From: Frankiales bacterium
GTDB taxonomy: Bacteria > Actinomycetota > Actinomycetes > Mycobacteriales > SCTD01
DNA: 37,019 nt
NCBI GenBank assembly: GCA_043740815.1
Contig: JAYUBO010000219.1
Span: forward strand, 1 to 37,019
Direction: 5' to 3'
Shown piece after piece: positions 9,683 through 26,115 of this stretch. A model generated the notes under the pieces. The model saw only the letters and a program-made list of their open reading frames with translations. It did not search any database and was not told where the DNA came from. Made by a program: the position numbers and the translations under genes. The stretch's first letter is position 1. Every line of letters starts with the position of its first letter.

Positions 9683-10736
9683 CGAGGTGCACGCTTTGCT
9701 TCATCTGGTCGCGGAGCTGGTCCGCACGGATGCATGCGGTCAAGGTCCCCGGCTCCAGCTGGTACAGAGCGGGCGTCATCTGCTCGCAGTCCGCGACCGC
9801 GTAGCTGCAGCGTTCCCTGAAGGGGCAGCCGGTCGTGGTCTCACGCGCCGAAGCGGGTCGCCCAGGTACGACCTGGAGCCGCTCGACCCTGCGATCCAGA
9901 CGCGGCCTGGCTCCGACCAGTGCGGCGGCATACGGATGCGCAGGGGCGTCGAACAGGTCAGCCGCCGACTGCACCGCCATGGGGCGGCCGGCGTACATCA
10001 CCACGACTTTGTCGCACAGGACCGACGCCAGCGCGAGGTCGTGGGTAATGAACAACAGGGACAGGCCCCTCGACTCCTGCAGGTCACGCAGGATGGCCAA
10101 GATGTCGGACTGGACGGTGACGTCCAGGGCCGTAGTGGCCTCGTCGGCGATGATCATCTTCGGCTCGCAGGACAGTGCACCGGCAATCATCACCCGCTGC
10201 AGCATCCCGCCTGAGAGCTGCCCAGGGTAGGAGCCGAGGACCCGGTCGGCCTCGCCGATGCCCAGGCTGTGCAGGAGTGTCGCCGATCGTTCACGGGCTT
10301 GCTGCTTCGTCATGCCCTTGTGCAGACGCAGGCCTTCCCCGATGTAGTCCTCGATGGTCCACAGCGGATCGATGTGCGCACGGGGGTCTTGGAAGATCAT
10401 CCCGATCTGGTCGCTACGGACCTTGCGCAGTTCCCGCCGGGTCATGGTGAGCGTGTTGTTGCCCAAAAAGTGCACCTGGCCGGTGCTGCGGGCGCCGGGT
10501 GGGAGCAGACCGATGATGGATCGGGCGGTGACGGACTTGCCGCTTCCGGACTCACCGACGAGCCCCACCACTTCACCTGCCTGGATGGTCAGGCGCATCT
10601 CCCGCACGATGGGCTGCAACGCCCCGCCGATGAGCAGGGAGGTGGTCAGGTCCTGGATGTCGAGGACTGGTGCGCCGGGCGGTAACCCCGTGGGAGGTGC
10701 GGACGCCGACGCGGGCAAGGCACTGGGTATCGTCAC
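9675..10736 (-). CDS. Oligopeptide/dipeptide ABC ATP-binding protein (OppD-like)
   Basis: GESGSGKSVT, MIFQDP, YPGQLSGGMLQR, DEATTALDVTVQ, HPY, GCPFRERC; GTG 10736 overlaps the upstream stop. Confidence 0.93.
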   Translation of the reverse strand: MTIPSALPASASAPPTGLPPGAPVLDIQDLTTSLLIGGALQPIVREMRLTIQAGEVVGLVGESGSGKSVTARSIIGLLPPGARSTGQVHFLGNNTLTMTRRELRKVRSDQIGMIFQDPRAHIDPLWTIEDYIGEGLRLHKGMTKQQARERSATLLHSLGIGEADRVLGSYPGQLSGGMLQRVMIAGALSCEPKMIIADEATTALDVTVQSDILAILRDLQESRGLSLLFITHDLALASVLCDKVVVMYAGRPMAVQSAADLFDAPAHPYAAALVGARPRLDRRVERLQVVPGRPASARETTTGCPFRERCSYAVADCEQMTPALYQLEPGTLTACIRADQLRDQMKQSVHLGD

Positions 10737-11590
10737 GCGCCCCGGACCAATCGCTTGGCGATGGCATCGCCCAGCACGTTGAACGCGATGACGGCGACCG
10801 CCACGGCGACGGAGGCAACGGTCACCTGGGTGACGGAGAACAGGATGCTCTGCCGCCCGTCGGAGAGCATCTGCCCCCAGTCCGGGGTGGGCGGCTGTAC
10901 GCCCAGACCCAAGAACGCCAGTCCGGCCAGGTCCAGCAGGGCATAGCCGAAGTTCAGCGTCGACTGCGCCACAATCGTCCCCGCCACGTTCGGGAGGATG
11001 TGGAACAGGCAGACCCGAAGGCCGCTGAAGCCCTGGATCCGACAGGCGTCGACGTAGGCATTGCTGCACTCCACGAGCACCACGCCACGCACGACCCTGG
11101 TGAGCAGCGGGATGTAGGTGATGGCGATGGCGATGACGGCCGTCCAGAAGCTGGCACCGAAGGTGGCCACGATGACGATGGCGAGCAGCAAAGGCGGAAA
11201 GCCGAACACCATGTCCCAGATCCTGGACAGCACCGAGTCGACCCATCCTCCGCGGTAGCCGGCAACGAGGCCGGCCGGCACACCGATGAGGATCGACATC
11301 AGCACGACAGCGAGGGGACCGAGCAGGCTCAGCCGGGTCCCGTAGATCAGTCGCGACAGGATGTCGCGGCCGGCCGCGTCGGTCCCGAGCAGGTGCTCAC
11401 TACTGATCCCCGAGAGGGTCTGGCTCAGCTGGATCGTGTTTGGGTTGTGCGGGGCCAGCAGCGGGGCTGCCGCCGCCACGAGCAGCAGCAGGCCGATCAC
11501 GGTGCCTCCCACGGCGAACCCGAGGAAGCCCGGAAGCCGGGGGGTGCCTCGCCGGATGACCAGGGGAGTTGCCAGATCAAGGGTGGTCAT
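10733..11590 (-). CDS. Oligopeptide ABC permease (OppC-like)
   Basis: HLLGTDAAGRDILSRLIYGTR, HILPN, FLGLGVQPPTPDWGQML, FNVLGD. Confidence 0.93.
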   Translation of the reverse strand: MTTLDLATPLVIRRGTPRLPGFLGFAVGGTVIGLLLLVAAAAPLLAPHNPNTIQLSQTLSGISSEHLLGTDAAGRDILSRLIYGTRLSLLGPLAVVLMSILIGVPAGLVAGYRGGWVDSVLSRIWDMVFGFPPLLLAIVIVATFGASFWTAVIAIAITYIPLLTRVVRGVVLVECSNAYVDACRIQGFSGLRVCLFHILPNVAGTIVAQSTLNFGYALLDLAGLAFLGLGVQPPTPDWGQMLSDGRQSILFSVTQVTVASVAVAVAVIAFNVLGDAIAKRLVRGA

Positions 11591-12537
11591 GACCGTCCGT
11601 CCGAGACTCGGATCCGTGGGTCGACCACGCCATAGAGCAGGTCGACAACGAGATTGAGGCCGATGAAGACGGCCGTAAACAGCAGGGTCACGGCCTGTAC
11701 GACTGAGTAGTCCTTCGCCTCGACCGCTTGCACTAGCAGTGAACCGAGCCCGTTGAGACCGAAGGTGTACTCGACCAGGACGGCGCCGCTGATGAGGTAG
11801 CCCACGGCCAGTCCCGCCACCGTCAGGATCGGGATGAGGGCGCTTCGGAGGACGTGCTTGAGCAAGACCCGACGATCGGTGAAACCGCGAGCGCGCACCG
11901 TCTCGACGAACTCCATCGCCAGGACCCGGACGACCGAGGCACGCGTCGTCCGTGCGATCAGCGCAATGAGGCTGAGGGCCAGGGCGAACGCGGGCAGAGT
12001 CAGGTGGAGCAAGCGGTCGGTGCCGCCCGTGCCGGTGCCGATGATGGGGAACCAGCCAAGCTTGACGCCGAAGACCACCAGCAGGACGACTCCTGAGACA
12101 TAGCTGGAGATCGAGGCCAGCACGAGGACGACCCCGGAGATCGCGGAGTCAGCCAGCTGCCCCTGCCGCAGGGCGGCAGCTGCCCCGAGAGCGACGCCGA
12201 CCACGACGGTGATGGTGGCCGCGTAGACCGCGAGCTCCAGGGTGGGCATCACCCGCGAGCCCACCACCGAGGACACCGGAGTCTTGTAGGTGATGGAGTC
12301 GCCCAGGTTGAAGTGCAGGACCCCGTTCAGCCAGATCCAGTACTGCTCGGGCAACGAGGCGTCCAGGTGGTACTGATGGCGGATGGAGGCGATCAGCGCA
12401 GGCGTGGACGGCCGGCCGCCGAGCAGCACGGACTCGGCATTGCCGGGCGCGAGGTGCTCGAGCAGGAACAGGACAATGGACGTGACAAGCAGCAATCCTG
12501 CGGCTGCTGCTGCCCGCCGGGCGAGATACCGCTGCAT
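11587..12537 (-). CDS. Oligopeptide ABC permease (OppB-like)
   Basis: QYWIWL, LGDS, FVETVRARG, KHVLRSALIP, GAVLVEYTF, NLVVDLLYGVVDPRIR; ATG 12537 preceded by a GGGG/AGGA SD-like sequence. Confidence 0.93.
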   Translation of the reverse strand: MQRYLARRAAAAAGLLLVTSIVLFLLEHLAPGNAESVLLGGRPSTPALIASIRHQYHLDASLPEQYWIWLNGVLHFNLGDSITYKTPVSSVVGSRVMPTLELAVYAATITVVVGVALGAAAALRQGQLADSAISGVVLVLASISSYVSGVVLLVVFGVKLGWFPIIGTGTGGTDRLLHLTLPAFALALSLIALIARTTRASVVRVLAMEFVETVRARGFTDRRVLLKHVLRSALIPILTVAGLAVGYLISGAVLVEYTFGLNGLGSLLVQAVEAKDYSVVQAVTLLFTAVFIGLNLVVDLLYGVVDPRIRVSDGRS

Positions 12538-12554
12538 GTCCTGTCCCCGCTCCG

Positions 12555-14222
12555 TTACGCGCCGCTGAGGTCTGCGGCCCAGCCGCTGTCCCAGTACCAG
12601 AGTGGCCGAAGCTCGTAGCCACCGAGACGCTTGTTGAGGGGCATCGTGGTCGAGGGCGTGAACAGCACGATCCACGACTGGTCATCGACGATCTGCGCCT
12701 GCGCGGTGTTGAACTCTTTCGCCCGCGCGGCCGGGTCACCCTCTATGGCCGACTGCGTCAGGGCGGCCGTGACCTTTGGATCGTTGTACTTGGTGTAGTC
12801 GGTCAGGTTGTTCTCCAGGAAACACTGCACCAAGGTGCCGCCCGGGTCTGGGTAGTCCGAGGACCACTCGAGCAAGAACCCGTCGTAGTCGTGCGCCTTG
12901 TCAGCGATCTTGGCCAGCAGCTGGGTGTACGGGATGTTCTGCAGCTTGATGTCGAGGCCGATGGCCTTGGCGGCTGCCTGGACGATGACGCCCTCCTCCT
13001 GCTCGTGCGGCGTGGCCACCAGGATCGTTGCTGACGCCCCTTCCGCACCGGCTTCCTTGATCAGTGCCTTGGCCTTCGCCACGTCGAGGGCAAAGTCCGG
13101 GAGGGCGTCGTAGGCGGACTGGAAGGCCTTCTGCTCGAAGCTCCACATGGCCGGCGTCGAGGGCGACTTGGACAGCGACCCGGCGCCTCCCCAGGTGGAG
13201 TCGAGGATCCCCTTCTTGTCGATGGCGTACGACAGCGCCTGCCGCACCCGAATGTCGGTGAAGGGCTTTCGCGTGACGTTGAGCCCCATGAAATGGACGA
13301 AGTACGACGGGGCGGTGGCGACCACCATGTTGGAGGCCCGGCTCAGCGCCTTCAGGTTCTTACCCGACAAGTTGAAGGCCCCGTCGATGTCACCGTTGAT
13401 CATCCCTTCGATCACAGTGGTCTCGCTGGCAATGACCTTGAAGACGATCTGGGCCACCTTCGGCTGCCGGCCCGGGTTCCAGTACTGGTCGTTCTTGGCA
13501 ATGATCGCCTGCTGTCCCTGCTGCCAGGAGACGAACTTGTACGGCCCAGTGCCGATGATGCCGACATTGGGCTTGCCGACGCTCTTGCCCTTGCTGTCCA
13601 GGAAAGCCTTGGGCGACACCGCTCCGACGGTGGTCGCCGGCACGTACTGCCAGAGCGCATCGGGCCGGGAGAGCTTGACGGTCAGCTCGTACGGGCCGGT
13701 CGCCGAGACGGTCTTGACGTTGCCGACGAAGGACGCCAAGTAGCTGCCCAGAGCTGGGTCGATGATGCGCTTCATCGAGGCTTCCGCGTCAGCGGCGGTC
13801 ATCACCGTGCCGTCGTGGAACTTCACACCCTGCCGCAGGGTGTAGACGTAGGTCGTCTCGTCCACTTTCTTCCAGGACGAAGCGAGGTTTGGCTGCAGCT
13901 CACCGGACGGCGACATCCGCAGCAGCGACTCCACGATGTTGGTGACCACCGGGTTGGTGTTGAAGTCGTACGCGAAGGCGTAGTCCATCGACACCGGATC
14001 CGCGAACAGTGCCCAGGTCATCTTGTCGACCGGCTTACCAGCGCCGGGTGGGAAGGATGCGGACGTGGCGACCCCTGGACCGGTGCCCTTCGGGGCCTTC
14101 GCACCCGAGCCGCAGGCGGCGAGCAGCTGCGACAGAGCCAGCGCGGAGACTCCGGTCGCAGCCCCGGCGAGCACCCGCCGACGGGTCACGCCGGTACTGG
14201 TGAACGGCATGTCATCGTTCAT
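12555..14222 (-). CDS. Family-5 (OppA/DppA-like) substrate-binding protein, Tat-type lipoprotein
   Basis: TRRRVL twin-arginine motif, LLAAC lipobox, LRQGVKFHDGT, GTGPYKF, PFTDIRVRQALSYAID, DYPDP. Confidence 0.92.
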   Translation of the reverse strand: MNDDMPFTSTGVTRRRVLAGAATGVSALALSQLLAACGSGAKAPKGTGPGVATSASFPPGAGKPVDKMTWALFADPVSMDYAFAYDFNTNPVVTNIVESLLRMSPSGELQPNLASSWKKVDETTYVYTLRQGVKFHDGTVMTAADAEASMKRIIDPALGSYLASFVGNVKTVSATGPYELTVKLSRPDALWQYVPATTVGAVSPKAFLDSKGKSVGKPNVGIIGTGPYKFVSWQQGQQAIIAKNDQYWNPGRQPKVAQIVFKVIASETTVIEGMINGDIDGAFNLSGKNLKALSRASNMVVATAPSYFVHFMGLNVTRKPFTDIRVRQALSYAIDKKGILDSTWGGAGSLSKSPSTPAMWSFEQKAFQSAYDALPDFALDVAKAKALIKEAGAEGASATILVATPHEQEEGVIVQAAAKAIGLDIKLQNIPYTQLLAKIADKAHDYDGFLLEWSSDYPDPGGTLVQCFLENNLTDYTKYNDPKVTAALTQSAIEGDPAARAKEFNTAQAQIVDDQSWIVLFTPSTTMPLNKRLGGYELRPLWYWDSGWAADLSGA

Positions 14223-14272
14223 GGTTAGCCCTCGACTCGATGTTGTTGGTGATCCTGCTGGCGGGTGCGTGC

Positions 14273-15082
14273 TCACGTGCCCTGTGGCCGGTTCTTGGAC
14301 AGGAAGTCCAGAAAGGCCTCGTTGAAGGCCTCTGGGTGCTCCCAGATGCAGGCGTGCCCGCCGAGCGTGCTGCGCCAAAGCGATCCTGGGATGAGGGTGT
14401 GCAGCTCGTGTGACAGCGCGGTCGGAATGAGGATGTCCTGCTCACCCGCCAAAACCAGCGTGGGGGTCGCTATCTGGCTGAGCTCGGCGGTGGTGTCGTG
14501 CTGCTGGATCACGGCCAGCTGGGCGAGGTAGGCCGCAATGGGCTGGTCCATGTAGCGCATCGCCGTCTCGAACTCGGCCAGCTCGTCCTCGCGGTCCCGG
14601 AAGAAGTCCAGTGTGAAGGCCCAGAGCGTCACGTCACGCATCACGAACGGGACGCCGTGCACCGATGCCGTCTCCGCCCACAGCGCGAACATCCGGGAGC
14701 AGAACGGCCCCGGGGCGGCATAGGTGCAGGCCAGCGTGAGGGAACTGAGGTCGTGTGGGTAGTCCAGGGCGTACCGCTGGGCGATCATCCCACCCATGGA
14801 CACACCCATGAGGTGCACCTTGGTCAGCCCCAGGTGGTCCACCAGGGACTTCGCATCCGCCGCAAGCAGGGCCGTGCTGTATGGGCCAGCCGGTTTCGAG
14901 GAAGCCCCAACGCCACGGTTGTCGAAGCAGACCACCCGGTACCCGGCCGCGAGCAGTGCGGGCGTTTGGTACATCCACGTGCTGAGGTCGTCGGCGAGAC
15001 CGTTGACCAGCAGGACGGTCTGGTCCCCTTCCCCCTCGACCTGGTAGTGGATGTCGATCCCGTTCAGGCGTTCCACAGGCAT
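14273..15082 (-). CDS. Alpha/beta-fold hydrolase (PcaD/enol-lactonase-like fold)
   Basis: FDNRGVGAS, GVSMGG nucleophile elbow, AGEQD acid residue, GGHA histidine. Confidence 0.85.
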   Translation of the reverse strand: MPVERLNGIDIHYQVEGEGDQTVLLVNGLADDLSTWMYQTPALLAAGYRVVCFDNRGVGASSKPAGPYSTALLAADAKSLVDHLGLTKVHLMGVSMGGMIAQRYALDYPHDLSSLTLACTYAAPGPFCSRMFALWAETASVHGVPFVMRDVTLWAFTLDFFRDREDELAEFETAMRYMDQPIAAYLAQLAVIQQHDTTAELSQIATPTLVLAGEQDILIPTALSHELHTLIPGSLWRSTLGGHACIWEHPEAFNEAFLDFLSKNRPQGT

Positions 15083-15086
15083 GTCG

Positions 15087-15839
15087 TTACCCCCTTCTGC
15101 TAGCGAGCGGACCGGGCGTGATCCGGGCGTGTAGGTCGCGCAGTGTTGCTTCGGTGAGGGAAAAGTGCTCAGCCGCGTGGCGTGCAGCCGCTTCGGGCTG
15201 ACGGTCGATAACAGCCTGGGCCAGCAGCGGGTGCTGCTGGAGCGCCCGGCCTCGGACTGCCTCGTTGTACGGCTCCGCCTCGAAGCCCAGGCTCACGTCC
15301 CGACGGATGCGAAGGCTCAGGTCGGCAAGCTGGGGATTGTGCGTCGCCACGGCCACGGACTGGTGCACATCCAGGTCGGCGAGACGGGACGACTCGCGGT
15401 CCCTGCCGGCCTTTTCGTATCCCCGCAGAGCGGCCTTGATGCGGGTGGCGTCTGTACGGGTGCAGCGCTCAGCGGCCGTGCGTGCAATCTGCTGCTCGAT
15501 GACCGAGCGCAGGTCCAGGGTGACCACGAGCTGATCCCACTGTGGTTCCAGGGCGCGCCAGACGCTGGCATCGGAGTCGTTGTTCCAGTGGTCGGTGACG
15601 AACGCGCCGCCACTGCGCCCGCGCCGGACCACTACATATCCCAGGGCCGACAGTCGGCTGAGGGCCTCGCGCACCGTGCTCGGGCTGACCTCGAGGAGCT
15701 CGGCCAGCCGCTGCACGGTCGGGAGCTTCTGCCCGGCGACGAACTGTCCGAGCGCGATGGCGGTGACGAAGCGGTCAGCGATCCGCGACGCGGCGGTTTC
15801 GGGAGCCAGCGGGCGCAACGCCCCGCTGGCGGTCGTCAC
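15087..15839 (-). CDS. GntR/FadR-family transcriptional regulator
   Basis: GQKLPT..LAELLEVSPSTVREAL..L...G.V..RRGRSGGAFV wHTH; FCD-type DLDVH..VA.ATHNP; GTG 15839 overlaps the upstream stop. Confidence 0.9.
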   Translation of the reverse strand: MTTASGALRPLAPETAASRIADRFVTAIALGQFVAGQKLPTVQRLAELLEVSPSTVREALSRLSALGYVVVRRGRSGGAFVTDHWNNDSDASVWRALEPQWDQLVVTLDLRSVIEQQIARTAAERCTRTDATRIKAALRGYEKAGRDRESSRLADLDVHQSVAVATHNPQLADLSLRIRRDVSLGFEAEPYNEAVRGRALQQHPLLAQAVIDRQPEAAARHAAEHFSLTEATLRDLHARITPGPLASRRG

Positions 15840-17134
15840 GTCACGTCCTGGTGGCGAAACCAGTCGAGCAGGAACCGGGCCACCGTGCGAGCACAGTCCA
15901 CGATGCTCGCCAGCTCCACCGCCTCGTCGGTGCCGTGCATGTTCCTCGTCCTGGGGCCGTAGGCCACCGTGGGCATGCCGAATTGGTTGACGTAGAAGCG
16001 GGCGTCCGTCGTCGAGGCGATCGTGACCCGCGCCGGTTCGGCACCGTGGGCAGACCGATGGGCTGCGCCGAGCTCCGTCACCAGGCGTGCGTCTTCGTCC
16101 TGGATATGCCGTTGCGCGCGGAAGCCGGTGAGCCTCAACCGAGGTGGGTGCGACGCCAGCCACTCGTCGGTCTCACTGACACTGGCGACGGCGGCCTGTA
16201 CCTGGGCGAAGGCCTCGTCACTGTTCCAGTGTCCCGGGTGTCCGACCCGCACGTCGAACCGTGCGACCGCGGGAACGCTTGACGCCCAGTCACCGGCACG
16301 GAACGTGCCGATGTTGACGTTGTAGGGGTGGCCGATGTGAGCGAACGCGTCGTCCCGGGTCTCGCCCTTGACGTGCTCGTCGTTCATGTCGGCTTCGAGC
16401 GCGCGGAGCGCCTCGACCACCGGCAGCGCCGCCAGGATGGGGTTGACGGAGCTCTGGGCGACCTGCGCATGACCGGACAGCCCGTCGACCTCCACGCTGA
16501 CCCAGATGATGTTGATGCCACCCAGTAGGAGCTCCAGGTTGGTCGGCTCCAGCAGCAGTGCCGCGTCCGCGATGTAGCCGGCGCGGCCGGACGCGAGGGT
16601 GCCGTTTCCGGTGCACTCCTCCTCGATGACCGAGACCCATGTCAGCTTCCCGGTGAGCCAGCCGGGCATCCCCTGATCCAGCGCCCAGATGGCAAGCAGC
16701 CCGGCAGCAAAGCCGGCCTTCATGTCGCCGGCTCCCCGCCCCACCAACCAGCCGTCACGCAGCGTGGGGGTGAACGGCGGGCTGCTCCAGACAGACGCGT
16801 CCTCGGCAGGGACAACGTCAATGTGCCCGTTCAACAGCAGCGACCCGGAGACGTCGCCGGCGTCGCCGCGCTCACCGATCACGTCGTACCGACCCGCATA
16901 GCTCCGGCTGGGTACCCCTGCCGACGGGTCGGCCCCGATCGACTCCGGAATCATCAACCGGGTGATCTCAAAGTCGGCGTCATGCAGGGCCGCCGCAAGG
17001 ACTTCCTGAGCGCCTGCCTCCTGGCCCACGGTGCTCGGCTCGGCCACCAGACGCTCCAGCAGTTCAAAAGCGCGCGGTGACAGTGCCGTGATCGCGGAGT
17101 CCAACTGCCTCAAGTTGTCCAGCGTGCTCGCCAT
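15836..17134 (-). CDS. M20-family (ArgE/DapE-like) metallo-amidohydrolase/deacylase
   Basis: NGHIDVVP, GRGAGDMKAG, IEEEC, EPT, TTDARFY, MHGTDE metal-binding motifs. Confidence 0.9.
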   Translation of the reverse strand: MASTLDNLRQLDSAITALSPRAFELLERLVAEPSTVGQEAGAQEVLAAALHDADFEITRLMIPESIGADPSAGVPSRSYAGRYDVIGERGDAGDVSGSLLLNGHIDVVPAEDASVWSSPPFTPTLRDGWLVGRGAGDMKAGFAAGLLAIWALDQGMPGWLTGKLTWVSVIEEECTGNGTLASGRAGYIADAALLLEPTNLELLLGGINIIWVSVEVDGLSGHAQVAQSSVNPILAALPVVEALRALEADMNDEHVKGETRDDAFAHIGHPYNVNIGTFRAGDWASSVPAVARFDVRVGHPGHWNSDEAFAQVQAAVASVSETDEWLASHPPRLRLTGFRAQRHIQDEDARLVTELGAAHRSAHGAEPARVTIASTTDARFYVNQFGMPTVAYGPRTRNMHGTDEAVELASIVDCARTVARFLLDWFRHQDVT

Positions 17135-17141
17135 CCCTCGG

Positions 17142-17164
17142 TGAATCAGCTATTTCGTGATTCA
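17142..17164. promoter_or_regulatory. Putative operator palindrome upstream of the M20-GntR-Opp operon
   Basis: TGAATCA-N9-TGATTCA perfect inverted repeat between a minus-strand -10 (TATGTT, 17170-17175) and ATG 17134. Confidence 0.55.
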
Positions 17165-17402
17165 TTGGCAACATAGTGCACTTCGGCACAGACAGAAAGC
17201 GCCCCTGCGGCCGGTCCGGGAACCTCTGTGGGCAAGGCACACCAGCAGCGTCAGGCCCGGTGGGTCCGCTTCGCCCCCCGCCGTGAGGTCCCGCCGCGCG
17301 GCTGCCCGCCCGCTCGAGCGTGACCGGGAGGGTCATTTGGAAAGCAGGACCAAGCCATTCGGACTATAGGTTCAGCGCTGACAACGTGGTGCAGTTCGCG
17401 TT

Positions 17403-17540
17403 ATGCCCGTTCGGCCGGTGCGACGTTCTGCACTTGTCGTCGCGCTTTTCTCGGCGTCCTTCGTCCTCACCGGCCTGCCTTCGCCAGCGCCCGCTCAGGC
17501 CGCCGCCTCGGTCGCCGGCTGCGCCGGGACCGAGTGCTGA
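17403..17540 (+). CDS. Small ORF (45 aa): signal peptide plus short two-cysteine peptide
   Basis: MPVRPVRRSALVVALFSASFVLTGLPSPAPAQA-AASVAGCAGTEC*; basic n-region, hydrophobic h-region, AQA cleavage motif; possible -10 TAGGTT at 17367-17372; absent from the ORF track. Confidence 0.5.
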   Translation: MPVRPVRRSALVVALFSASFVLTGLPSPAPAQAAASVAGCAGTEC

Positions 17541-17573
17541 CCACGGCTCACCCACCTGCACCAGGAGCATTCC

Positions 17574-20500
17574 ATGCGCAGCAAGCCCCTCGTCGTCGGA
17601 CTGCTGACGGCCGCCCTGGCGCTCACCGGCCACCCCCCCGCCTCGGCCGCCCTCACCGACAGCGAGGCACCGCAGCTGGTGGCGCTCACGCTTGCCCCGC
17701 CGGCGGTCAACGTGACCACGGACAGCGCCACGACGGTGGCCGTGCTGCGCCTGACCGACGCGGACGGCGCAGGGGCTGCCGGTACCGGGGTTGCCTCCGG
17801 CAGTCTCACCCTGAGCAAGGGAGCGACGTCCCTGCCACCGGTCTCGTTCCTCGGCGCGCAGCGGGTCAACGGCAGCGCGACCGACGGCACCTGGGACGTC
17901 TACGTCAGCCTTCCCCAAGGCCAGGCGGGCGGCACGTATACGGTTTCCGACCTCACGCTGATCGACGGGTCGGGCAACGTCCGGAGCGTCACGTCCGCTG
18001 CCGCCCTGTCGGTGACGCGCCAGCCGGACACCGCCGCGCCGGCGCTCGCCGGCCCGCTAGGCGTCTCGCCTACGACCGTCGACGTCACCCACGGCAGCAA
18101 GGAAGTGCTTCTCACGGCCACCGTGACCGACGATGTGTCCGGAGCCGCCTCGGCCGTCGCCACCCTCACCGGTCCTACACCACCCTCGCCACCGGGGGGC
18201 ATCCCGCCGACCAAGAGCGTCACGCTGTACAAAGCGACCGGCACGGCACTCAACGGCACCTGGACTGGTGGCACGACCTTCTACCCTGCTGCTGGCGAGG
18301 AGGGGAGTTGGAGCATCACCTCGCTGGCTCTCACCGACGGGTACGGCAACACCACCAACGTGACCAGCGGCCTCGGTAGCGCCATCGCGGTGTCCGGTGC
18401 CGCGGACACCACAGGTCCGACCCTTGACAGCATCACGGCCAGCTCCGTGGTCGACACCACGCAGAGCGACAAGACGATCGGGCTGTCCGCCCACCTCTCG
18501 GACGCGGTCAGCGGCGTCACAGGTGCGAGCTTCACCTGGACGGCGCCGAACGGGACCAGCACCGTCACCGGTTTCACCAACGAGCTGACCAGTGGCACGA
18601 CGAACTTCGGAACGTGGGACTTCCAGGTCACCGTCCCGGCGCGCTCCCAGCAGGGCACCTGGACGCTGACCGATGTCCAGCTATACGACGTCTACGGCAA
18701 CCCCACGGTGCTGACAGCCGCCGCCGTTCCACCCAGCACCATCACCGTGACCACCGTCGCTGACCCGGACGGACCGGCCCTGGTCAGCCTTCAGCTCGGC
18801 CCGGACACCGTCGTCGTCGGAACCTACGGGGGTGCCCTGGACGGTCACCTGCACGTCACGGACGGCGTGTCCGGTCTGAAGACCGCGGTCCTGACCTTTA
18901 AGGATCCGAGCGGCGTGGTGGCCCCCAGCCTGACGACGACCCTGCACCTGCAGGACGCAGCGACGGGCGGCACCCCGACCGACGCGATCTTCCACTTCAG
19001 CGTCCCGGTGGGCACCAGCGCTGTGGACGGCACCTGGATCCTTGACACGCTCGTGCTTACCGATGTGGCGGGCAACCTCACCACCCTGTCCAACGCGGAC
19101 CTCTCGACCGGCGACCGGAGCTTCGTGGTGTCTCACGCGACGACCGACACGACCGCGCCGACGCTGACGTCCCTCAGTGTGTCCCCCACGTCGGTGACCA
19201 CGACAGGGGGTGAGCAGACGGTCACCGTGACAGTGGGAGCGACCGACGCCGGCAGCGGGGCGCAAGGGCTGGCCGGGGTCGATGTCGTCCTGTCCTCACC
19301 CAGCGGCAGCAAGCAGGTCTACGCCTTCCTGTCCCGGTCCGACCTCTTCAGCGGCGACAGCGTCAACGGCACCCTTCGCGGCACGCTCACCATTCCTCAA
19401 TACACCGAGAGCGGCACGTGGGTCGTGTCCGACGTGAACCTGTTCGATGCCGCATACAACCAGCGTGACGTCCTGCAGGGCGACCTTGCCGCCGCCGGCC
19501 TCACGACGACCGTTGCCGTCACGGCCGCGCAGGACACGACCCCTCCGGTGCTGACCGGTCTCACGCTCACGACGCCGACGGTGGACACCACCGTCAGCAG
19601 TATCGTCAGGTTCACCGCCGCAACCAATGACCCTGCCTCCGGACTGGCCACGGTGAGGCTGACCCTGAGCGGACCGGGGGGACGCACCGGCACCAGCACG
19701 CAGTACCCAGGTGTCCCGGGCGGATCGACCTCCACGCCGATCGCCGTCGACGTGCCCTACTTCGGGTCGTCCGGCACCTGGACCACCAGCTCGGTGACGC
19801 TCACCGACAACGTCGGCAACGTTCGCACCTACGGTCCGGCCGAGCTCACGACGCTGGGACTGAGCAGAAGCGCGACGGTCACCGCCCCGGTCGACACCAC
19901 CGCACCCTCGCTGGTGTCGCTGCAGCTGACGCCGGCGCCGACCGACAGCACCTCGGCAGCCGTGGACGTGGACGTGCTCGCCCACGTGACGGATGCGACC
20001 GCTGGCGTGGCGTCCAGCTCCCTCACCGCGACCAGCCCGCACGGCTACCAGACCGTGAAGGCCACCCTGGGCCGGATCAGCGGCTCCGCCCAGGACGGTT
20101 ACTGGCAGGGCACGCTGCACATCCCGCAGTACGTCGACGGTGGCGCCTGGGTGCTGCAGCCGTTCAAGGCGACCGACCTCGCCGGGAACGCGCTCAGCCT
20201 GACCAGCGCGCAGCTCACTCCGGGTACCTTGACCGTGACCGGCGCGACCGACAGCGTCCTGCCGGCGCTCAGCAGCTTGGCCATCAGCCCGAGTTCTGTG
20301 GAGACCAGCACGGGGGACAAGACCCTGGCCTTCGCTGCCGGCGCCACCGACGGGCAGTCGGGCGTGGCGTCGGTGACCGTGACCGTGAGCGCCCCGAGCG
20401 GGGACCCGCGGCAGGTCACCACGTCGCTGGCCACCGGCACCGCCGCCTCGGGGAGCTGGACGGGCTCGCTGCTCCTGCCGGCCTACTCCGAGACCGGTGC

Positions 20501-23399
20501 CTGGTCCGTCACCAGTCTCAGCGTCACCGACGTCTACGGGAACGTGCACTCGTACACCCATCAGCAACTCGTGGACGCGGGCGTGACGAGCAGCGGCTTC
20601 ACGGTGACGGGGACCCCCGACACCGTGGCACCGCAGCTGACCGGGCTCACGCTGTCGGCCGCTAGCACCGATGTGTCGGCTGGGGCGGCCACGCTCACCG
20701 GGTCCCTCACTGCCACCGACGCGGGCTCTGGAGTGCGGTCCGCCTTCTTCAGCTTCGTCAGCTCCGCCGGGGACCGGTCCGTGTCAGCCGGTGTGACCGT
20801 CGGCGAGCGCACGGCCGGCACCCCGCAGGCCCCGACGCTGCCGTTCACGTTGCAGGTTCCGCGCTTTGCGCAGGCCGGCACGTGGACCTTGAGCGATCTG
20901 TCCCTGGAGGACACCGCGGGCAATGTCGTGACGTATCCCGCGACGCCCTTCCCCGCCTCCGGGGTCACGCAGTCGTTCACCGTGGTCGACAGCAACCCGG
21001 ATCTGATGGCTCCCGCCGTGGTGGGGGTGAGCATCTCGCCGTCCTCGCTGGACGTCCGGACGGCCGCCGCCGACCTGACGGTGGACGTGCACGTGACGGA
21101 TGCCGTCAGCGGCGTGTCGGGCGGCACCGTGCACCTGATCAGCCTGCAGGGCGTCGACCTGCGGGACGTGGGGTTCAGCAGCAACGAGCGCCTCAGCGGT
21201 GACCTGCACGACGGCATCTACCGCATCAGCGTCCCGTTCGGGACGTCCAGCGAGTCGGGCACCTGGGCCATCGAGGTGCGTCAGCTCACCGACGCCGCAG
21301 GCAACGTCACCTCCTACACGGGAACCTCTGTGCCCGGCACGCGGCAGGTGCAGATCCTCGGCACCCCGGTCGTGCCGGCGGCGCCGACCGACGTCGTTGC
21401 CGCACCTGGCAACCAGCGGGCCACCGTCTCCTGGAACGCGCCCGCCAACGGCGGATCTGTCATCACCAGCTACGCCGTCACCCCGTCGGTGGCAGGTGTG
21501 GCACAGACCCCTGTCGTCGTCGGGAACGTCAGCTCAGCCAACCTCCCGGGGCTGACGAACGGCACGGCGTACACCTTCACGGTCACGGCCACCAACGCGG
21601 TCGGCATCAGCCAGGCGTCGGCGCCCTCGGCTCCGGTCACGCCAGGCCCGACCGTGGCCGGTTCCCCGACGATCACGACAGCCACGGCCGGGGACGCCTC
21701 GGTAGCGCTGGCCTGGACACCCCCGACCGATGACGGCGGGTCGCCGGTGACCAAGTACATCATCACGACCTACACCGACGCGGACGTGCCGATCTCGAGC
21801 ACCGATCTGGGCAACGTCACGTCCACCACGGTGACCGGACTGACCAACGGCGTCGGCTACTACCTTGCCGTCCGGGCACTCAACGCACTCGGGCCCGGCG
21901 CACCCGACTTCTCGGGGCTCGTCACGCCCCTGTCCGCGTCCACCACGGTGCCCGGAGCCCCGACGATCGGGACTGCCACGCTGGTGGGTGCCACCAGCGC
22001 CAGCCTGACCTGGACGGCGCCCTCCGACGGTGGCGCACCACTCACGGGCTATGTCATCACGCCCTACCTCGGGCCGGTGGCGCAACCGGTCACATCGGTC
22101 GGCGGCGGCACCAGTATGACGGTCACCGGGCTGTCGAAGGGCAAGACCTACACGTTCACGGTGAAGGCCGTGAACGCCAAGGGTGCCGGGGTCGAGTCGG
22201 CGATGTCCGGGCCGGTGGTGGTGCCCACGACGCTGCCAGGAGCTCCGACAACCCTGGGCGCCTCCACAGCGGCCGGCGGAGTCGACAGCATCGTGGCCAG
22301 CTGGAACCCACCGACGGACAATGGCGGAACCGCCCTCACGGGCTACGTGGTCACGCCGTACGTGAACGGGGTGCTCCAGACCCCAGCGACGACCACCGAC
22401 ACCGTCTTCGCCGTCGATCACGTGAGTGCCGGCGTGCCCTACACGTTCACCGTGCACGCCCTGAACAGCATGGGGAACGGACCGGAGAGCGCGCCCTCCA
22501 ACGCGGCCGCCTACCCCGGTAGTCTTCCTTCACTGCCTGGACGTCCGGTCGCGATCCCGGGCAGCGGGTCAGCCAAGTTGACCTGGACCCCGCCCGGGTC
22601 CTCAGGCGGCTACCCGATCAGCGGCTACGACGTCACGCTGTACAAGGCCGGTGTCGCGCTCGTCGTACGTGTCGGGATCCGGCTTACCACCACGGTGACC
22701 GGGCTGACCAACGGCGCCAGCTACACCTTCACCGTCGCCGCCCGCAACCCCATCGGGGTGGGCCCGGCCTCGCTCGCCAGCGCGGCTGTGGTGCCGCGCG
22801 TACCGACAAAGGTGGCCATCACCTCGGCCCCGACGCTGGCGACATACGGCGTCGCGATCCGGGTCGTCGGCAAGCTCGTCCGGGCCGACAACGGAGCTGC
22901 CCTGGCCGGCCAGAGCGTGCAGCTGCAGGCCCGCAAGAAGGGGACGACCGTCGCGTTCGGCACCGTGGCGACGGTGGTCTCGGGCAGTACGGGCGTCGTG
23001 ACGTTCACGACGTACAAGCCGACCTACCCGGTCGAGATCCGACTGGTCCGCCCCGTCGTGGCGAACAACCCGTGGGGCACCTCGACCTCGCTCAGCAAGG
23101 TCATCGCGTGCCAGCTCAGGGTGAGTGCGGTCACCTCCGTCGCCGCGGTGACGCTGGGGAAGTCCTTCACCCTCACGACGACGGTGGCTCCGTCGCGGGC
23201 GGGAAAGAGCGCCTACCTCCAACGCCTCGTCGGGTCGACCTGGACGACGATCGCCACCAAGGTGCTCTCCTCCACCAGTGCTGGGACCTTCGTGGTCAAG
23301 CCGGCCTCGCGTGCCACCTTCAGCTACCGGGTGCTCGTCAAGGCAGATGCAGTCTTCAGTCTTTCGACCTCGATCGTGAAGAAGGTGACGGTGAGCTGA
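17574..23399 (+). CDS. Large secreted/surface protein (1941 aa): 10 Ig-like repeats, 5 fibronectin type III domains, basic C-terminal region
   Basis: SD AGGAG; signal peptide MRSKPLVVGLLTAALALTGHPPASA; repeated DxxxPxL...D..SG...GtW...DxxGN units; FN3 W.pP..GG....Y and Y.F.V.A.N..G motifs. Confidence 0.9.
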   Translation: MRSKPLVVGLLTAALALTGHPPASAALTDSEAPQLVALTLAPPAVNVTTDSATTVAVLRLTDADGAGAAGTGVASGSLTLSKGATSLPPVSFLGAQRVNGSATDGTWDVYVSLPQGQAGGTYTVSDLTLIDGSGNVRSVTSAAALSVTRQPDTAAPALAGPLGVSPTTVDVTHGSKEVLLTATVTDDVSGAASAVATLTGPTPPSPPGGIPPTKSVTLYKATGTALNGTWTGGTTFYPAAGEEGSWSITSLALTDGYGNTTNVTSGLGSAIAVSGAADTTGPTLDSITASSVVDTTQSDKTIGLSAHLSDAVSGVTGASFTWTAPNGTSTVTGFTNELTSGTTNFGTWDFQVTVPARSQQGTWTLTDVQLYDVYGNPTVLTAAAVPPSTITVTTVADPDGPALVSLQLGPDTVVVGTYGGALDGHLHVTDGVSGLKTAVLTFKDPSGVVAPSLTTTLHLQDAATGGTPTDAIFHFSVPVGTSAVDGTWILDTLVLTDVAGNLTTLSNADLSTGDRSFVVSHATTDTTAPTLTSLSVSPTSVTTTGGEQTVTVTVGATDAGSGAQGLAGVDVVLSSPSGSKQVYAFLSRSDLFSGDSVNGTLRGTLTIPQYTESGTWVVSDVNLFDAAYNQRDVLQGDLAAAGLTTTVAVTAAQDTTPPVLTGLTLTTPTVDTTVSSIVRFTAATNDPASGLATVRLTLSGPGGRTGTSTQYPGVPGGSTSTPIAVDVPYFGSSGTWTTSSVTLTDNVGNVRTYGPAELTTLGLSRSATVTAPVDTTAPSLVSLQLTPAPTDSTSAAVDVDVLAHVTDATAGVASSSLTATSPHGYQTVKATLGRISGSAQDGYWQGTLHIPQYVDGGAWVLQPFKATDLAGNALSLTSAQLTPGTLTVTGATDSVLPALSSLAISPSSVETSTGDKTLAFAAGATDGQSGVASVTVTVSAPSGDPRQVTTSLATGTAASGSWTGSLLLPAYSETGAWSVTSLSVTDVYGNVHSYTHQQLVDAGVTSSGFTVTGTPDTVAPQLTGLTLSAASTDVSAGAATLTGSLTATDAGSGVRSAFFSFVSSAGDRSVSAGVTVGERTAGTPQAPTLPFTLQVPRFAQAGTWTLSDLSLEDTAGNVVTYPATPFPASGVTQSFTVVDSNPDLMAPAVVGVSISPSSLDVRTAAADLTVDVHVTDAVSGVSGGTVHLISLQGVDLRDVGFSSNERLSGDLHDGIYRISVPFGTSSESGTWAIEVRQLTDAAGNVTSYTGTSVPGTRQVQILGTPVVPAAPTDVVAAPGNQRATVSWNAPANGGSVITSYAVTPSVAGVAQTPVVVGNVSSANLPGLTNGTAYTFTVTATNAVGISQASAPSAPVTPGPTVAGSPTITTATAGDASVALAWTPPTDDGGSPVTKYIITTYTDADVPISSTDLGNVTSTTVTGLTNGVGYYLAVRALNALGPGAPDFSGLVTPLSASTTVPGAPTIGTATLVGATSASLTWTAPSDGGAPLTGYVITPYLGPVAQPVTSVGGGTSMTVTGLSKGKTYTFTVKAVNAKGAGVESAMSGPVVVPTTLPGAPTTLGASTAAGGVDSIVASWNPPTDNGGTALTGYVVTPYVNGVLQTPATTTDTVFAVDHVSAGVPYTFTVHALNSMGNGPESAPSNAAAYPGSLPSLPGRPVAIPGSGSAKLTWTPPGSSGGYPISGYDVTLYKAGVALVVRVGIRLTTTVTGLTNGASYTFTVAARNPIGVGPASLASAAVVPRVPTKVAITSAPTLATYGVAIRVVGKLVRADNGAALAGQSVQLQARKKGTTVAFGTVATVVSGSTGVVTFTTYKPTYPVEIRLVRPVVANNPWGTSTSLSKVIACQLRVSAVTSVAAVTLGKSFTLTTTVAPSRAGKSAYLQRLVGSTWTTIATKVLSSTSAGTFVVKPASRATFSYRVLVKADAVFSLSTSIVKKVTVS
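17658..21360 (+). repeat. Ten diverged tandem protein repeats (119-129 aa)
   Basis: Unit starts (Asp codons) at 17658, 18027, 18405, 18762, 19146, 19533, 19893, 20250, 20619, 21000. Confidence 0.85.
21370..22795 (+). repeat. Five tandem fibronectin type III domains
   Basis: ATVSWNAP, VALAWTPP, ASLTWTAP, VASWNPP, AKLTWTPP, each followed by GG.P/A..Y and Y.F.V.A.N-like motifs. Confidence 0.88.
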
Positions 23400-23432
23400 G
23401 CGAGAGGTATCAGGCACGTGCCGCTACTGCCG

Positions 23433-24635
23433 CTACAGGGCCGGGCGACGCCATTCGAGCATGAGAAGGGTTGCGTCGTCGGTCAGCTGTTCGGCGTGAT
23501 GGGTGAGCAGCTCGCGAACGACCCGACGCATGGTCTCGGGCGCGTCGAGACCGCCGGCGAGCTGAATGGTCACCAGCTCGGCCAGCCGTGCGACCCCGAA
23601 GAACTCTCCCTCGGGTGAGCGTGCCTCCACGACGCCGTCGCTGTAGAGCAGGATCATGTCACCGGGCTCGAGCTGCTCCTGGCCGAGGTGCGGCCCCTCG
23701 TCTGCGAGCAGGTGACCCAAGCCCAACGGAGGTCGAGGGTCCGTCTCGAGCACTTTGATCAGCTTGCCCCCGCGCAGCAACAGGGGAAAGGGATGTCCAG
23801 CGTTGACCCAGGTCAGCAACCCTGTGTCGGTGTCCAGGTCGGCCATGACGGCGGTGCTGAAAAGCTCTCCACCCAGCCCGGTCACGAGCGCCTCGTCCAC
23901 GCTGTCGAGCACCTCGACCAGGCCCAGGCCCGCGCGTCGTGCGCTCCGGTACGCCGCAACGGTGAACACCGCGCATTGGGCGCTGTGCAGGCCGTGACCC
24001 ATCCCGTCGAAGATGGCGACCTGCGTGCGTCCTGGGTCTACCGAGTAGTCCACGGCGTCGCCGGCAACGGCGTAGCACGGCTCCAGGGCGGCCGACACGG
24101 TCACCTCGGTGGTGGCGTAGCTCAAGGGGGGCAGGACCGAATAGTGCAGCTCAGCTGCCACGCCCAGGTGATGACTTCGACGCAGCAGGACGATCGTGTC
24201 CCCGTAGGCGCTTTTTGCTTGCAGGAGCACCCCAGCTGCGTCAGCCAGGCGACCGAGGGCAGCCATCTGGTCTGCGCTGACCGCGTCGGCGAAGGTGGCT
24301 GACAGCACACCCAGGCGGTGCGAGCCGATGCCCACCGGCAACCAGAGCCGTGTCCGACCCTCGGACTCCAACTGGGTCTGTGCCTGCACGGTCTGGTAGG
24401 CCCGACCGGCCAGGGTGCCATCGACCGGCAAGACGGGCAACGCCCGCCGCTCGGGTGACGCGTTGGGCCCGAGCAGCGGTTGCAGCACGCGCTGCTGCAG
24501 GTCGGTGATGTAGACGAGCCCGTCGTCCGCTCCGAGCTCCTGCGCGCACGCATCGAACAGGTCGGCGAGCTCGTGGGGTGCTGCGAGGGCCGCTCCCCGC
24601 GCCAGGGTGTCCAACGCGTGCTCGGTCCAGGCCAT
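23433..24635 (-). CDS. SpoIIE/PP2C-family (RsbU-like) Ser/Thr phosphatase with GAF-like N-terminus
   Basis: AGDAVDY, IFDGMGHG, NAGHPFP, YSDGVVEA, DDATLL; TAAGGT -10 box 6 nt before the ATG. Confidence 0.9.
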   Translation of the reverse strand: MAWTEHALDTLARGAALAAPHELADLFDACAQELGADDGLVYITDLQQRVLQPLLGPNASPERRALPVLPVDGTLAGRAYQTVQAQTQLESEGRTRLWLPVGIGSHRLGVLSATFADAVSADQMAALGRLADAAGVLLQAKSAYGDTIVLLRRSHHLGVAAELHYSVLPPLSYATTEVTVSAALEPCYAVAGDAVDYSVDPGRTQVAIFDGMGHGLHSAQCAVFTVAAYRSARRAGLGLVEVLDSVDEALVTGLGGELFSTAVMADLDTDTGLLTWVNAGHPFPLLLRGGKLIKVLETDPRPPLGLGHLLADEGPHLGQEQLEPGDMILLYSDGVVEARSPEGEFFGVARLAELVTIQLAGGLDAPETMRRVVRELLTHHAEQLTDDATLLMLEWRRPAL

Positions 24636-24737: not shown

Positions 24738-25145
24738 TCAGGTCGCGGCGAAATGAGGGTTGACGATGAAGCCCACGACGGACCCCTGCGGCGTCAGCAC
24801 GCTGGCGGTGACGATGCCGTCGCCGACCTCGGTCGACGTGGTGTGCAGCGTCGCTCCCTGGGCGGTTGCGGCGTCGACCGCGGCCTGTGTGTCTGCCACG
24901 CCCCAGTAGGTGACCGCGCCGTCCGCAGGGTCGCCATCCGGGAGCAGACCGAGCTCGTAACCGGCCACCTCGAAGCCGACGTAGAAGGGCTCACGGAAGT
25001 ACGGGCCCGTGCCGAGCAGCTCGGTCCACCATGTTGTTGCGGCGGCCAGGTCAGGCGCCGGGTAGATCACGGTGCGCAGTCCGAGCAGCTCCAGTCCCGT
25101 ACACGTGAGTCTGTCACGGCGGCTCCGCGTAACCTTCTCGCCCAT
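24738..25145 (-). CDS. VOC/glyoxalase-family protein; start uncertain (ATG 25145 or non-canonical ACG 25100)
   Basis: GLRTVIYPAPDLAAA..WW..LLG..PYF.EPFYVGF..GYELGL, TYWGVAD, EVGDGI. Confidence 0.82.
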   Translation of the reverse strand: MGEKVTRSRRDRLTCTGLELLGLRTVIYPAPDLAAATTWWTELLGTGPYFREPFYVGFEVAGYELGLLPDGDPADGAVTYWGVADTQAAVDAATAQGATLHTTSTEVGDGIVTASVLTPQGSVVGFIVNPHFAAT

Positions 25146-25938
25146 GACCACCTTTTGTGCGCCGTGCCTCGCCGATCTGGCTCTTGTCCGCGAGGCCGTG
25201 ACGGCCGTCTCCGGCACCGCCGCCTGCATGGCCCATGCGGTCCTGCTCACCCACCCGACCGACACGCCGCAGCGCAGACTGACCCGGCTCGGGGAGCTAC
25301 GGACCATGGCGGAGAGCAAGCTGCTGACTGCCTCCACCGAGGATGCGCCCACGATCGAGCTGCTCGTGCAGGAGTACGCGCTGGCCGGCGCCATGGACAT
25401 GACGGTGCCGCTGCGCGACCTGGCTGGTGATCGCACGCCCCGACCGGCCAAGGGTCGCCGTACCCGGCCGGGCCGCGGTGACCGCCCCGAGGGTGTTGAG
25501 GGTGGCCGTCCCGAGGGTGGCCGTCCCGAAGGGGAGCGTGGCCCCCGGGGCGAGCGAGGTCCGCGCGTTGAGCGGGGCCCGCGTCCCGAGCGGACCGCTG
25601 AGGCCGGTGCCGGCCTCAGTGGTGACGGCAGCGCTGAGGTGACCCCGGTGAGGAACGACGAAGCGCCCCAGTCCAGCCCCGCGCAGATCGACAGTGCCGC
25701 TCCCGACAGTCCCGCTCCCGAGAGGTCCGGTACCGAGTCGCCCGGTACCGAGACGGCGGCTCCCGAGCGGACGGCTCCCGAGACGGCGGCTCCGGCGATG
25801 GCTGCAGAGGCACCCGCCCCCACGCCCACGCCCACGCCGGTGCCCACGCCCGGGCCCGCGCCGGCTGCGCCCGCTGCCGACGGGCCCGTCGAGCGGGACG
25901 TGCCTGCCGCCGCGCCCGCTCCCAGCTCGTCGGTCTGA
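25144..25938 (+). CDS. Hypothetical protein (264 aa): N-terminal CxxC-x19-CxxH domain plus low-complexity tail
   Basis: Coding-like third-position GC over the first ~95 codons; TAACCT -10 box 8 nt before the ATG; GGRPE, RGPR, APETA and PT repeats. Confidence 0.65.
   Translation: MTTFCAPCLADLALVREAVTAVSGTAACMAHAVLLTHPTDTPQRRLTRLGELRTMAESKLLTASTEDAPTIELLVQEYALAGAMDMTVPLRDLAGDRTPRPAKGRRTRPGRGDRPEGVEGGRPEGGRPEGERGPRGERGPRVERGPRPERTAEAGAGLSGDGSAEVTPVRNDEAPQSSPAQIDSAAPDSPAPERSGTESPGTETAAPERTAPETAAPAMAAEAPAPTPTPTPVPTPGPAPAAPAADGPVERDVPAAAPAPSSSV
25498..25851 (+). repeat. Short coding tandem repeats
   Basis: GAGGGTGGCCGTCCC x2 (25498-25527), 15-nt-period CCGAG(AC/CG)G..GGCT units (~25748-25795), CCCACG tandem copies (~25819-25836). 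Confidence 0.7.
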
Positions 25939-26115
25939 CCTGCGCGCTGGTCCCACTGAGTGATCCCCTGACCGCCGAGGATGACCTCGAGGGCCGGCTG
26001 CGCAAGGCCGTCGACCACACGGGGGTCCTGCTCGGCGACACCGCTGCGGTCTGGGTCTGAGGGCTTTGTGCGCAGCGCCCCTCGGCTCGATGTCACCGCT
26101 CGTAGGCTGAGGCTC

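What the first reader, a model, noticed from the sequence alone, without database searches (positions are those of the whole stretch)
17403..17540. Hidden 45-aa ORF: full signal peptide releasing a ~12-aa peptide ending in CAGTEC
Seen: ATG 17403 to TGA 17540 encodes MPVRPVRR / SALVVALFSASFVLTGL / PSPAPAQA / AASVAGCAGTEC. This is a textbook tripartite signal peptide with an RR pair, followed by only ~10-12 residues whose two Cys could close a six-residue disulfide ring. It lies 33 nt upstream of, and in frame with, the giant protein, which has its own SD and signal peptide. Inference: either a secreted signalling or bioactive micro-peptide, or the 5' remnant of a deleted secreted-protein gene. 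Its SD is weak.
Basis: partly seen in the sequence, partly recalled or inferred. Interest (0 to 1): 0.7.

Follow-up and report, generated by a model that had tools for sequence, protein, structure and literature searches.

The report
Signal-peptide stub of deleted RHS gene
The 45-codon reading frame is real, but in a related strain the same signal peptide runs on into a much longer secreted protein with RHS/YD repeats, so this is likely the leftover front end of a deleted gene, and its two-cysteine tail is likely an accident of the deletion, not a purpose-built signalling peptide.

Summary
The ORF (17403-17540, 45 aa), its signal-peptide-like anatomy, the 33-nt gap and the shared frame with the 1,941-aa giant gene are confirmed. 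A contig from another study (run X5, ~88% identical over 17276-17519) keeps the upstream region, the ATG and codons 1-39, then breaks off exactly before Cys40 and reads on in frame without stop or Cys. Database protein P0023 (409 aa) matches residues 11-39 at 28 of 29 and residues 40-45 at 0 of 6. It continues into unnamed actinobacterial 'PxRVLDTR' repeats and RHS/YD repeats. The gene body was not found elsewhere in this 87%-complete genome. Three contigs span the junction unchanged, so it is not a misassembly. The locus is decaying: P0023 is itself broken, congener G019 has lost this ORF and nearly all of the giant gene, and a truncated giant variant exists. Verdict: an ordinary 5' gene remnant.

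The parts
17276..17402 (+). Upstream non-coding region inherited from the parent gene (likely its promoter and 5' leader)
   Evidence: Colinear with the same X5 contig that carries the parent's N-terminus: 14 listed substitutions and a 2-nt gap in 127 nt. No sigma-70 consensus found.
17403..17519 (+). Codons 1-39: signal peptide (predicted cleavage near A31-Q-A33) plus short linker of the deleted secreted gene
   Evidence: X5 contig aligned through 17519 with the ATG unchanged; 28 of 29 residues identical to P0023 over residues 11-39; codons 12-39 +20 bits coding-frame score.
17519..17520 (+). Inferred deletion junction, between Gly39 and Cys40
   Evidence: X5 loose end of 52 letters begins behind 17519; P0023 diverges at the same residue; contigs of X2, X3, X4 span it with 0, 0, 2 differences over 2,401 nt.
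17520..17540 (+). Six-codon tail (CAGTEC) and TGA from the far side of the junction; origin unresolved (non-coding read-through or the natural end of the last deleted gene)
   Evidence: 0 of 6 residues shared with P0023; no coding-frame signal (-0.3 bits).
17563..17567 (+). Shine-Dalgarno-like AGGAG of the giant gene
   Evidence: Sequence; 6 nt before ATG 17574.
17574..23399 (+). Neighbouring 1,941-aa secreted surface protein gene (DUF7035/DUF7743/DUF7034 repeats and five fn3 stretches); context, with its own signal peptide
   Evidence: Pfam; 3,576 relatives at E<=0.001 among 50%-identity representatives.

Best explanation
The ORF is likely the 5' stub of a deleted gene for a large secreted protein, probably of the RHS/YD-repeat kind: codons 1-39 match the signal peptide and linker of a longer protein in a related strain, and the six-residue two-cysteine tail likely comes from whatever sequence the deletion joined behind codon 39. 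Shown: homology through codon 39, an abrupt break at codon 40, the relative's in-frame continuation into 'PxRVLDTR' repeats and RHS repeats, and no trace of that body in this assembly. Inferred: the direction of the event (loss here, not gain there); its size (probably kilobases); export of the parent by the general Sec route like B. subtilis WapA; the giant gene now lying just behind the parent's upstream region. If the stub is still translated, it would be exported or degraded as a by-product without a selected function.
For:: the X5 contig (303 nt, depth 3.8; study P2, not the source study) aligns over 17276-17519 with 29 other letters and a 2-nt gap, then has 52 loose letters; the 30 shown read in frame EVYATTPTKV, with no stop or Cys. 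P0023, the only hit among 702 candidates of 80-2,000 aa, is 28/29 identical over residues 11-39 and 0/6 over 40-45, and carries the same L11M change and continuation as X5. P0023 has PF05593 (39.9 bits, cut-off 22) and TIGR01643 (31.3, cut-off 15.8); of the listed X5 changes, those in codons 12-39 are only two, both synonymous, as expected for a part of a working gene; no RHS match, no close P0023 match and no match to the relative's junction motif in G000; three contigs span the junction. G019 keeps both flanks (92% and 85%) but only the last ~60 codons of the giant gene. P0169 matches the giant over residues 1-154 (99%) and then ends after an out-of-frame-like tail. P0023 has a cut-short second repeat, and its residues 351-409 fit a shifted frame by 27 bits.
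Against: Only one related lineage was found: X5 and P0023 share their changes and may be the same strain or sample. The X5 contig is a single piece under depth 5. No intact parent gene was seen, and no contig was seen that links the RHS body to the giant gene. P0023 is itself broken and could be an assembly chimera behind residue ~225, so the RHS label is less sure (about 0.7) than 'longer secreted protein'. In the 4 listed homologues that combine both domain types (of 120 listed), the match to P0023's repeats lies inside or behind RHS repeats, not at the N-terminus. G000 is 87% complete, so a missing body is not proof of absence. The stub itself is still intact, which fits a recent deletion but does not exclude selection.
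Confidence: 0.9

Rival explanations
1. Co-opted secreted micro-peptide: whatever its origin, the stub is translated, cleaved after A33 and releases a ~12-residue disulfide-ringed peptide that is now under selection as a signal or bioactive peptide.
For: Intact signal peptide with AxA sites; upstream region and ATG retained; the same junction in contigs of 2021 and 2023 samples of study P1.
Against: The Cys pair and stop are absent in the relative. Two Cys arise in 2.2% of short random tails. No full-length homologue of the region in 77 genomes of the family. No peptide-processing, receptor or modification genes among the window's Pfam-annotated neighbours, apart from a divergently transcribed peptidase and peptide ABC transporter that G019 keeps without the ORF.
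Confidence: 0.04
2. Duplicated 5' end of the giant gene: the stub arose by a 156-nt-offset duplication of the giant's own signal-peptide region.
For: The giant's signal region is the best ungapped DNA match in the genome to the stub's core (32 of 48; boundaries chosen after seeing the likeness). With boundaries fixed beforehand it ties for 3rd of 1,738 ORF starts (DNA) and for 2nd of 1,995 (protein).
Against: The stub is 28/29 identical to P0023 but only about half identical to the giant's signal peptide, and unrelated signal peptides score as high or higher. At most the two neighbouring genes share an old signal-peptide module; the stub's direct parent is the P0023-type gene.
Confidence: 0.02
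3. Regulatory upstream ORF or stop-codon read-through: the ORF controls translation of the giant gene, or read-through of the TGA gives the giant protein a second signal peptide.
For: Same frame, 33-nt gap and no further stop before the giant's ATG.
Against: The giant gene has its own SD-like site and signal peptide. The frame match is a 1-in-3 event. No terminator-like site was found in 16900-17800. The arrangement is not shared by the relative.
Confidence: 0.04

Closest known systems
Bacterial gene remnants (5' pseudogene stubs left by deletion); Kuo and Ochman 2010, PMC2916853 (abstract and outline read)
   Same: Start region and first codons retained, body lost, a short junction-derived tail to the next stop; patchy among strains; further deletion in a congener (G019). 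The abstract reports that young pseudogenes are rapidly removed by deletion.
   Different: Nothing essential; here the retained part happens to be a complete signal peptide followed by a tail with two Cys.
Signal-peptide-bearing RHS/YD-repeat proteins of Gram-positive bacteria, such as B. subtilis WapA (Jamet and Nassif 2015, PMC4436062; 12 passages read) - for the parent gene, not for the stub
   Same: N-terminal signal peptide, accessory repeats, then RHS repeats (PF05593, TIGR01643 in P0023). [quoted passage not shown]
   Different: The parent's N-terminal repeats are a ~129-aa actinobacterial domain without a Pfam family. No RHS core domain, toxin tip or immunity gene was seen, because P0023 is broken before them.
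Small secreted cyclic or disulfide signalling peptides (recalled, from no call)
   Same: Signal peptide followed by a short mature peptide with two Cys.
   Different: Such peptides are conserved in length and Cys position and sit with dedicated processing or sensing genes; here neither conservation nor such genes were found.

Membership tests
5' gene remnant | A relative carries a longer ORF that begins with the same sequence | tested here: met
   X5 contig and P0023
5' gene remnant | Homology ends abruptly at a junction; what follows is unrelated to the parent | tested here: met
   28/29 identity before, 0/6 after codon 39; loose end behind 17519
5' gene remnant | The gene body is missing from the genome | tested here: met
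   Not found in the 87%-complete assembly with three queries; not proof of absence
5' gene remnant | No selection on the remnant since the deletion | tested here: inconclusive
   No variation within the ORF in the three spanning contigs of one study
Conserved secreted disulfide micro-peptide | Length, stop position and Cys pair conserved in relatives | tested here: not met
   no full-length DNA match in 77 family genomes
Conserved secreted disulfide micro-peptide | Translation, cleavage and disulfide shown | not testable with these tools
   Needs Ribo-seq and MS
Tat substrate | Twin-arginine consensus signal | tested here: inconclusive
   RR present at 7-8, but no NCBIfam match at E<=1; TatP/SignalP not available
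RHS/YD-repeat polymorphic toxin (parent gene) | RHS/YD repeats | tested here: met
   P0023: PF05593 39.9 bits over cut-off 22; TIGR01643 31.3 over 15.8
RHS/YD-repeat polymorphic toxin (parent gene) | RHS-associated core domain (TIGR03696) | tested here: inconclusive
   Not found in P0023, whose residues 351-409 read as out of frame, so the place where it would lie was not seen
RHS/YD-repeat polymorphic toxin (parent gene) | Variable C-terminal toxin tip with downstream immunity gene | not testable with these tools
   The contig that encodes P0023 could not be fetched

The most novel reading that the evidence does not exclude
Gene birth by deletion: loss of the body of a secreted RHS-type gene fused its promoter and signal peptide to a two-cysteine tail and created a new secreted disulfide-ringed 12-mer, caught at the moment of origin, that this lineage now makes and uses.
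Probability: 0.04. Interest if true: 0.65.

Novelty: new member of a known kind. Interest (0 to 1): 0.12.

Why it matters
As found, it matters little: it is an ordinary remnant in a decaying accessory island of an uncultured actinobacterium. It is a clean cautionary case for small-protein mining: a complete signal peptide with a short Cys-pair tail can be a deletion scar, and one low-depth contig from another sample was enough to show it. Of side interest: the parent pairs a signal peptide and a widespread ~129-aa actinobacterial repeat that has no Pfam family with RHS repeats. If the novel case held, it would be a datable example of a secreted peptide born from a deletion junction.

Tried and rejected
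Searches for loci with the giant gene's N-terminal part found none in genome contigs (147 pattern matches, 0 confirmed) or metagenome contigs (169, 0 confirmed), nor in 60 related genomes. Exact DNA pattern scans found 0 matches in genome contigs (the pattern spanned the junction, so it could not match an intact parent locus) and 0 in metagenome contigs. The 45-aa sequence is not in the 15-billion protein collection, which may only reflect gene-caller length limits. DNA search of 77 family genomes: 33 had short weak matches (<=79 nt, E>=7e-6), none over the region; the two best in the genus were checked and lie in unrelated genes. Class sample: 21 of 400 genomes had distant giant-like matches (29-39% identity; two of them, G130 and G136, are unpublished and enter only this tally, as G023 does); their neighbourhoods were not examined. 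RHS genes of 8 of 22 congeners were fetched: none carries the PxRVLDTR motif or a DNA match to the stub, so none is the parent. The tblastn of P0023's tail against those loci was dominated by low-complexity hits and was not used; the composition test was used instead. No RNA holder listed. X5 has no cover over 17520-17720, so the origin of the tail could not be read. Misassembly rejected. Promoter/terminator scan empty. Literature searches: 3 papers, listing only, not relevant; 7, listing; one read in passages; 0 papers; listing; one abstract read; no claim that something is not in print is made.

Full report
Observation. It has three arginines near the start, a hydrophobic core and AxA sites at residues 29, 31 and 33, so it looks like a signal peptide; SignalP was not available. 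It matches no Pfam family and no NCBIfam family at E<=1, Tat models included. A codon model trained on 1,738 long ORFs of this genome gives codons 12-39 +20 bits for the coding frame, codons 1-11 -8.4 bits and codons 40-45 -0.3 bits: the middle is gene-like, the tail shows no signal either way.

Setting. The genome (G000; 2.75 Mb, 357 contigs, 87% complete, 69.7% G+C) is an actinobacterium by inference from G+C and from the named homologues of its proteins. The ORF lies between a divergently transcribed M20 peptidase gene and a giant secreted protein with DUF7035/DUF7743/DUF7034 repeats and fn3 domains, followed by a SpoIIE-type phosphatase gene on the other strand. The giant gene's first 400 residues were not found in 60 related genomes, though it has thousands of distant relatives elsewhere (3,576 at E<=0.001). 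Congener G019 is colinear with the window over 12101-17221 (92%) and again from 23219, with about 70 unaligned bases between; it keeps only the last ~60 codons of the giant gene and has nothing of the small ORF. Congener G006 joins window 7818 directly to 23440. The block is therefore a variable island that is being eroded.

Is the junction real? Logan contigs of three runs (X2, X3, X4; one study, possibly this DNA's source) span 16800-19200 in one piece with 0, 0 and 2 differences, none in the ORF. It is not an artefact of this one assembly, but these runs are not independent strains.

The decisive evidence. Run X5 (glacier metagenome, another study) holds a 303-nt contig of depth 3.8 that aligns over 17276-17519 with 29 other letters and a 2-nt gap. 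It keeps the ATG and the frame. Of the 26 listed differences, 14 lie upstream, 10 in codons 1-11 and 2 in codons 12-39, the latter both synonymous (3 differences near the ends are not listed). Exactly behind codon 39 the contig leaves the window's sequence for 52 letters; the 30 shown read EVYATTPTKV in frame, without Cys or stop. A search of longer proteins with the 45-mer then returned one hit among 702 candidates, P0023 (409 aa, ENA). It is identical to residues 11-39 at 28 of 29 positions (the exception is the L11M also seen in X5) and to residues 40-45 at 0 of 6, and it continues with the same ten residues. X5 and P0023 may be one strain, so they count as one lineage seen in two assemblies.

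What the parent is. Behind the linker P0023 has a ~129-aa repeat that begins with a PxR/KVLDTR motif, then the first ~57 residues of a second copy (38 of 57 identical), then RHS/YD repeats (PF05593 39.9 bits, TIGR01643 31.3 bits, both over cut-off). The first domain has no Pfam family; its nearest Atlas clusters are unnamed and mostly actinobacterial, and it recurs in many secreted proteins (172 longer proteins match P0023 1-350; 53 of 77 family genomes match). Four of the 120 listed homologues carry RHS repeats as well, though in another order. P0023 is itself broken: the second repeat is cut short, and residues 351-409 fit the composition of a shifted frame 27 bits better than an in-frame one. 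No RHS core, toxin tip or immunity gene was seen. The review PMC4436062 (12 passages read) describes Rhs proteins as typically over 1,500 residues and B. subtilis WapA as a signal-peptide-bearing member likely exported by the general pathway; congeners' RHS frames run 2,068-3,201 codons where complete. So the parent probably worked like WapA, but membership of the polymorphic toxins is not shown, and a chimeric assembly of P0023 behind residue ~225 is not excluded.

Is the body elsewhere in this genome? Not found: P0023 gives only two weak repeat matches on another contig (33-35%), PF05593 gives 0 matches in G000 against 8 of 22 congeners, and the relative's junction motif gives 0 matches at up to 3 mismatches. 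The assembly is 87% complete.

Mechanism. Shown: shared upstream region and codons 1-39, a break at codon 40, a long continuation in the relative. Inferred: a deletion, probably of kilobases, removed the gene body and joined codon 39 to sequence lying just before the giant gene; the frame runs six more codons to a TGA. Short tails are common (28,996 of 200,000 random junctions give <=10 aa), and 2.2% of them hold two Cys, so the Cys pair needs no special cause in a scan of many windows. Whether the tail is non-coding DNA or the natural end of the last deleted gene is open, because X5 has no cover over 17520-17720. X5 also holds pieces of the giant gene at similar depth (4.2 and 3.6), which suggests but does not show that parent and giant gene are neighbours in that strain. 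Other lineages show the same decay: G019 above, and P0169, which matches the giant over residues 1-154 and then ends. The abstract of PMC2916853 reports that young bacterial pseudogenes are quickly removed by deletion, which fits.

Results against, and a side observation. Only one related lineage was found, from a low-depth contig and a broken protein; the intact parent was not seen; the stub is undamaged, which fits recency but does not exclude selection. The stub's core resembles the giant's own signal peptide 156 nt downstream: best ungapped match in the genome with boundaries chosen after the fact (32 of 48), tied 3rd of 1,738 (DNA) and tied 2nd of 1,995 (protein) with fixed boundaries. 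This hints that the two neighbouring genes share an old signal-peptide module, but unrelated signal peptides score as high, and the stub's direct parent is the P0023 type.

Earlier scan notes describe five similar stubs in other genomes; they are unchecked here and are not used as support. Look-ups by place and by sequence returned nothing.

Verdict. Observation confirmed; micro-peptide reading not supported; remnant reading supported (0.9). New member of a known kind; interest 0.12.

Noticed in passing
window 17433-17501 versus 17589-17657: The stub's signal-peptide core resembles the giant protein's own signal peptide at DNA and protein level (32/48 nt; top 2-4 among ~1,700-2,000 ORF starts), hinting at a shared signal-peptide module between two neighbouring genes with unrelated bodies.
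   Followed up: partly
window 7819-23439; L027 (G006), L128 (G019): A ~15.6-kb block (hydrolases, peptide ABC transporter, GntR regulator, M20 peptidase, stub, giant gene) is missing at this site in G006, which joins the flanks directly; G019 has the block but only the last ~60 codons of the giant gene.
   Followed up: partly
P0023 residues 29-160: A ~129-aa repeat starting with PxR/KVLDTR has no Pfam family, yet occurs in 53 of 77 family genomes and in many actinobacterial secreted proteins (amidases, S8 peptidases, fn3, PQQ, RHS proteins); it may be an unnamed surface-anchoring module (function inferred, untested).
   Followed up: partly
P0169 (window 17574-18035 equivalent): A 161-aa database protein 99% identical to the giant's first 154 residues and ending in an out-of-frame-like tail: a broken giant allele or a sequencing error in a close strain.
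   Followed up: partly
window 17365-17372: An A/T-rich stretch with a TAnnnT hexamer (consensus recalled, from no call) about 30 nt before the ATG is unchanged in the X5 contig; a candidate -10 box, not found by the sigma-70 scan.
   Followed up: no
L125 (G012:C164), L124 (G016:C12): RHS genes of two congeners appear split into consecutive frames (1,426 + 849 codons in G012; frames of 409 and 511 codons in G016), so broken RHS genes seem common in the genus.
   Followed up: no
window 24741-25955: Region between the SpoIIE-type gene and cobD with long Pro/Ala-rich repetitive frames on both strands and no Pfam match; conserved in part in G019, G006 and G003.
   Followed up: no
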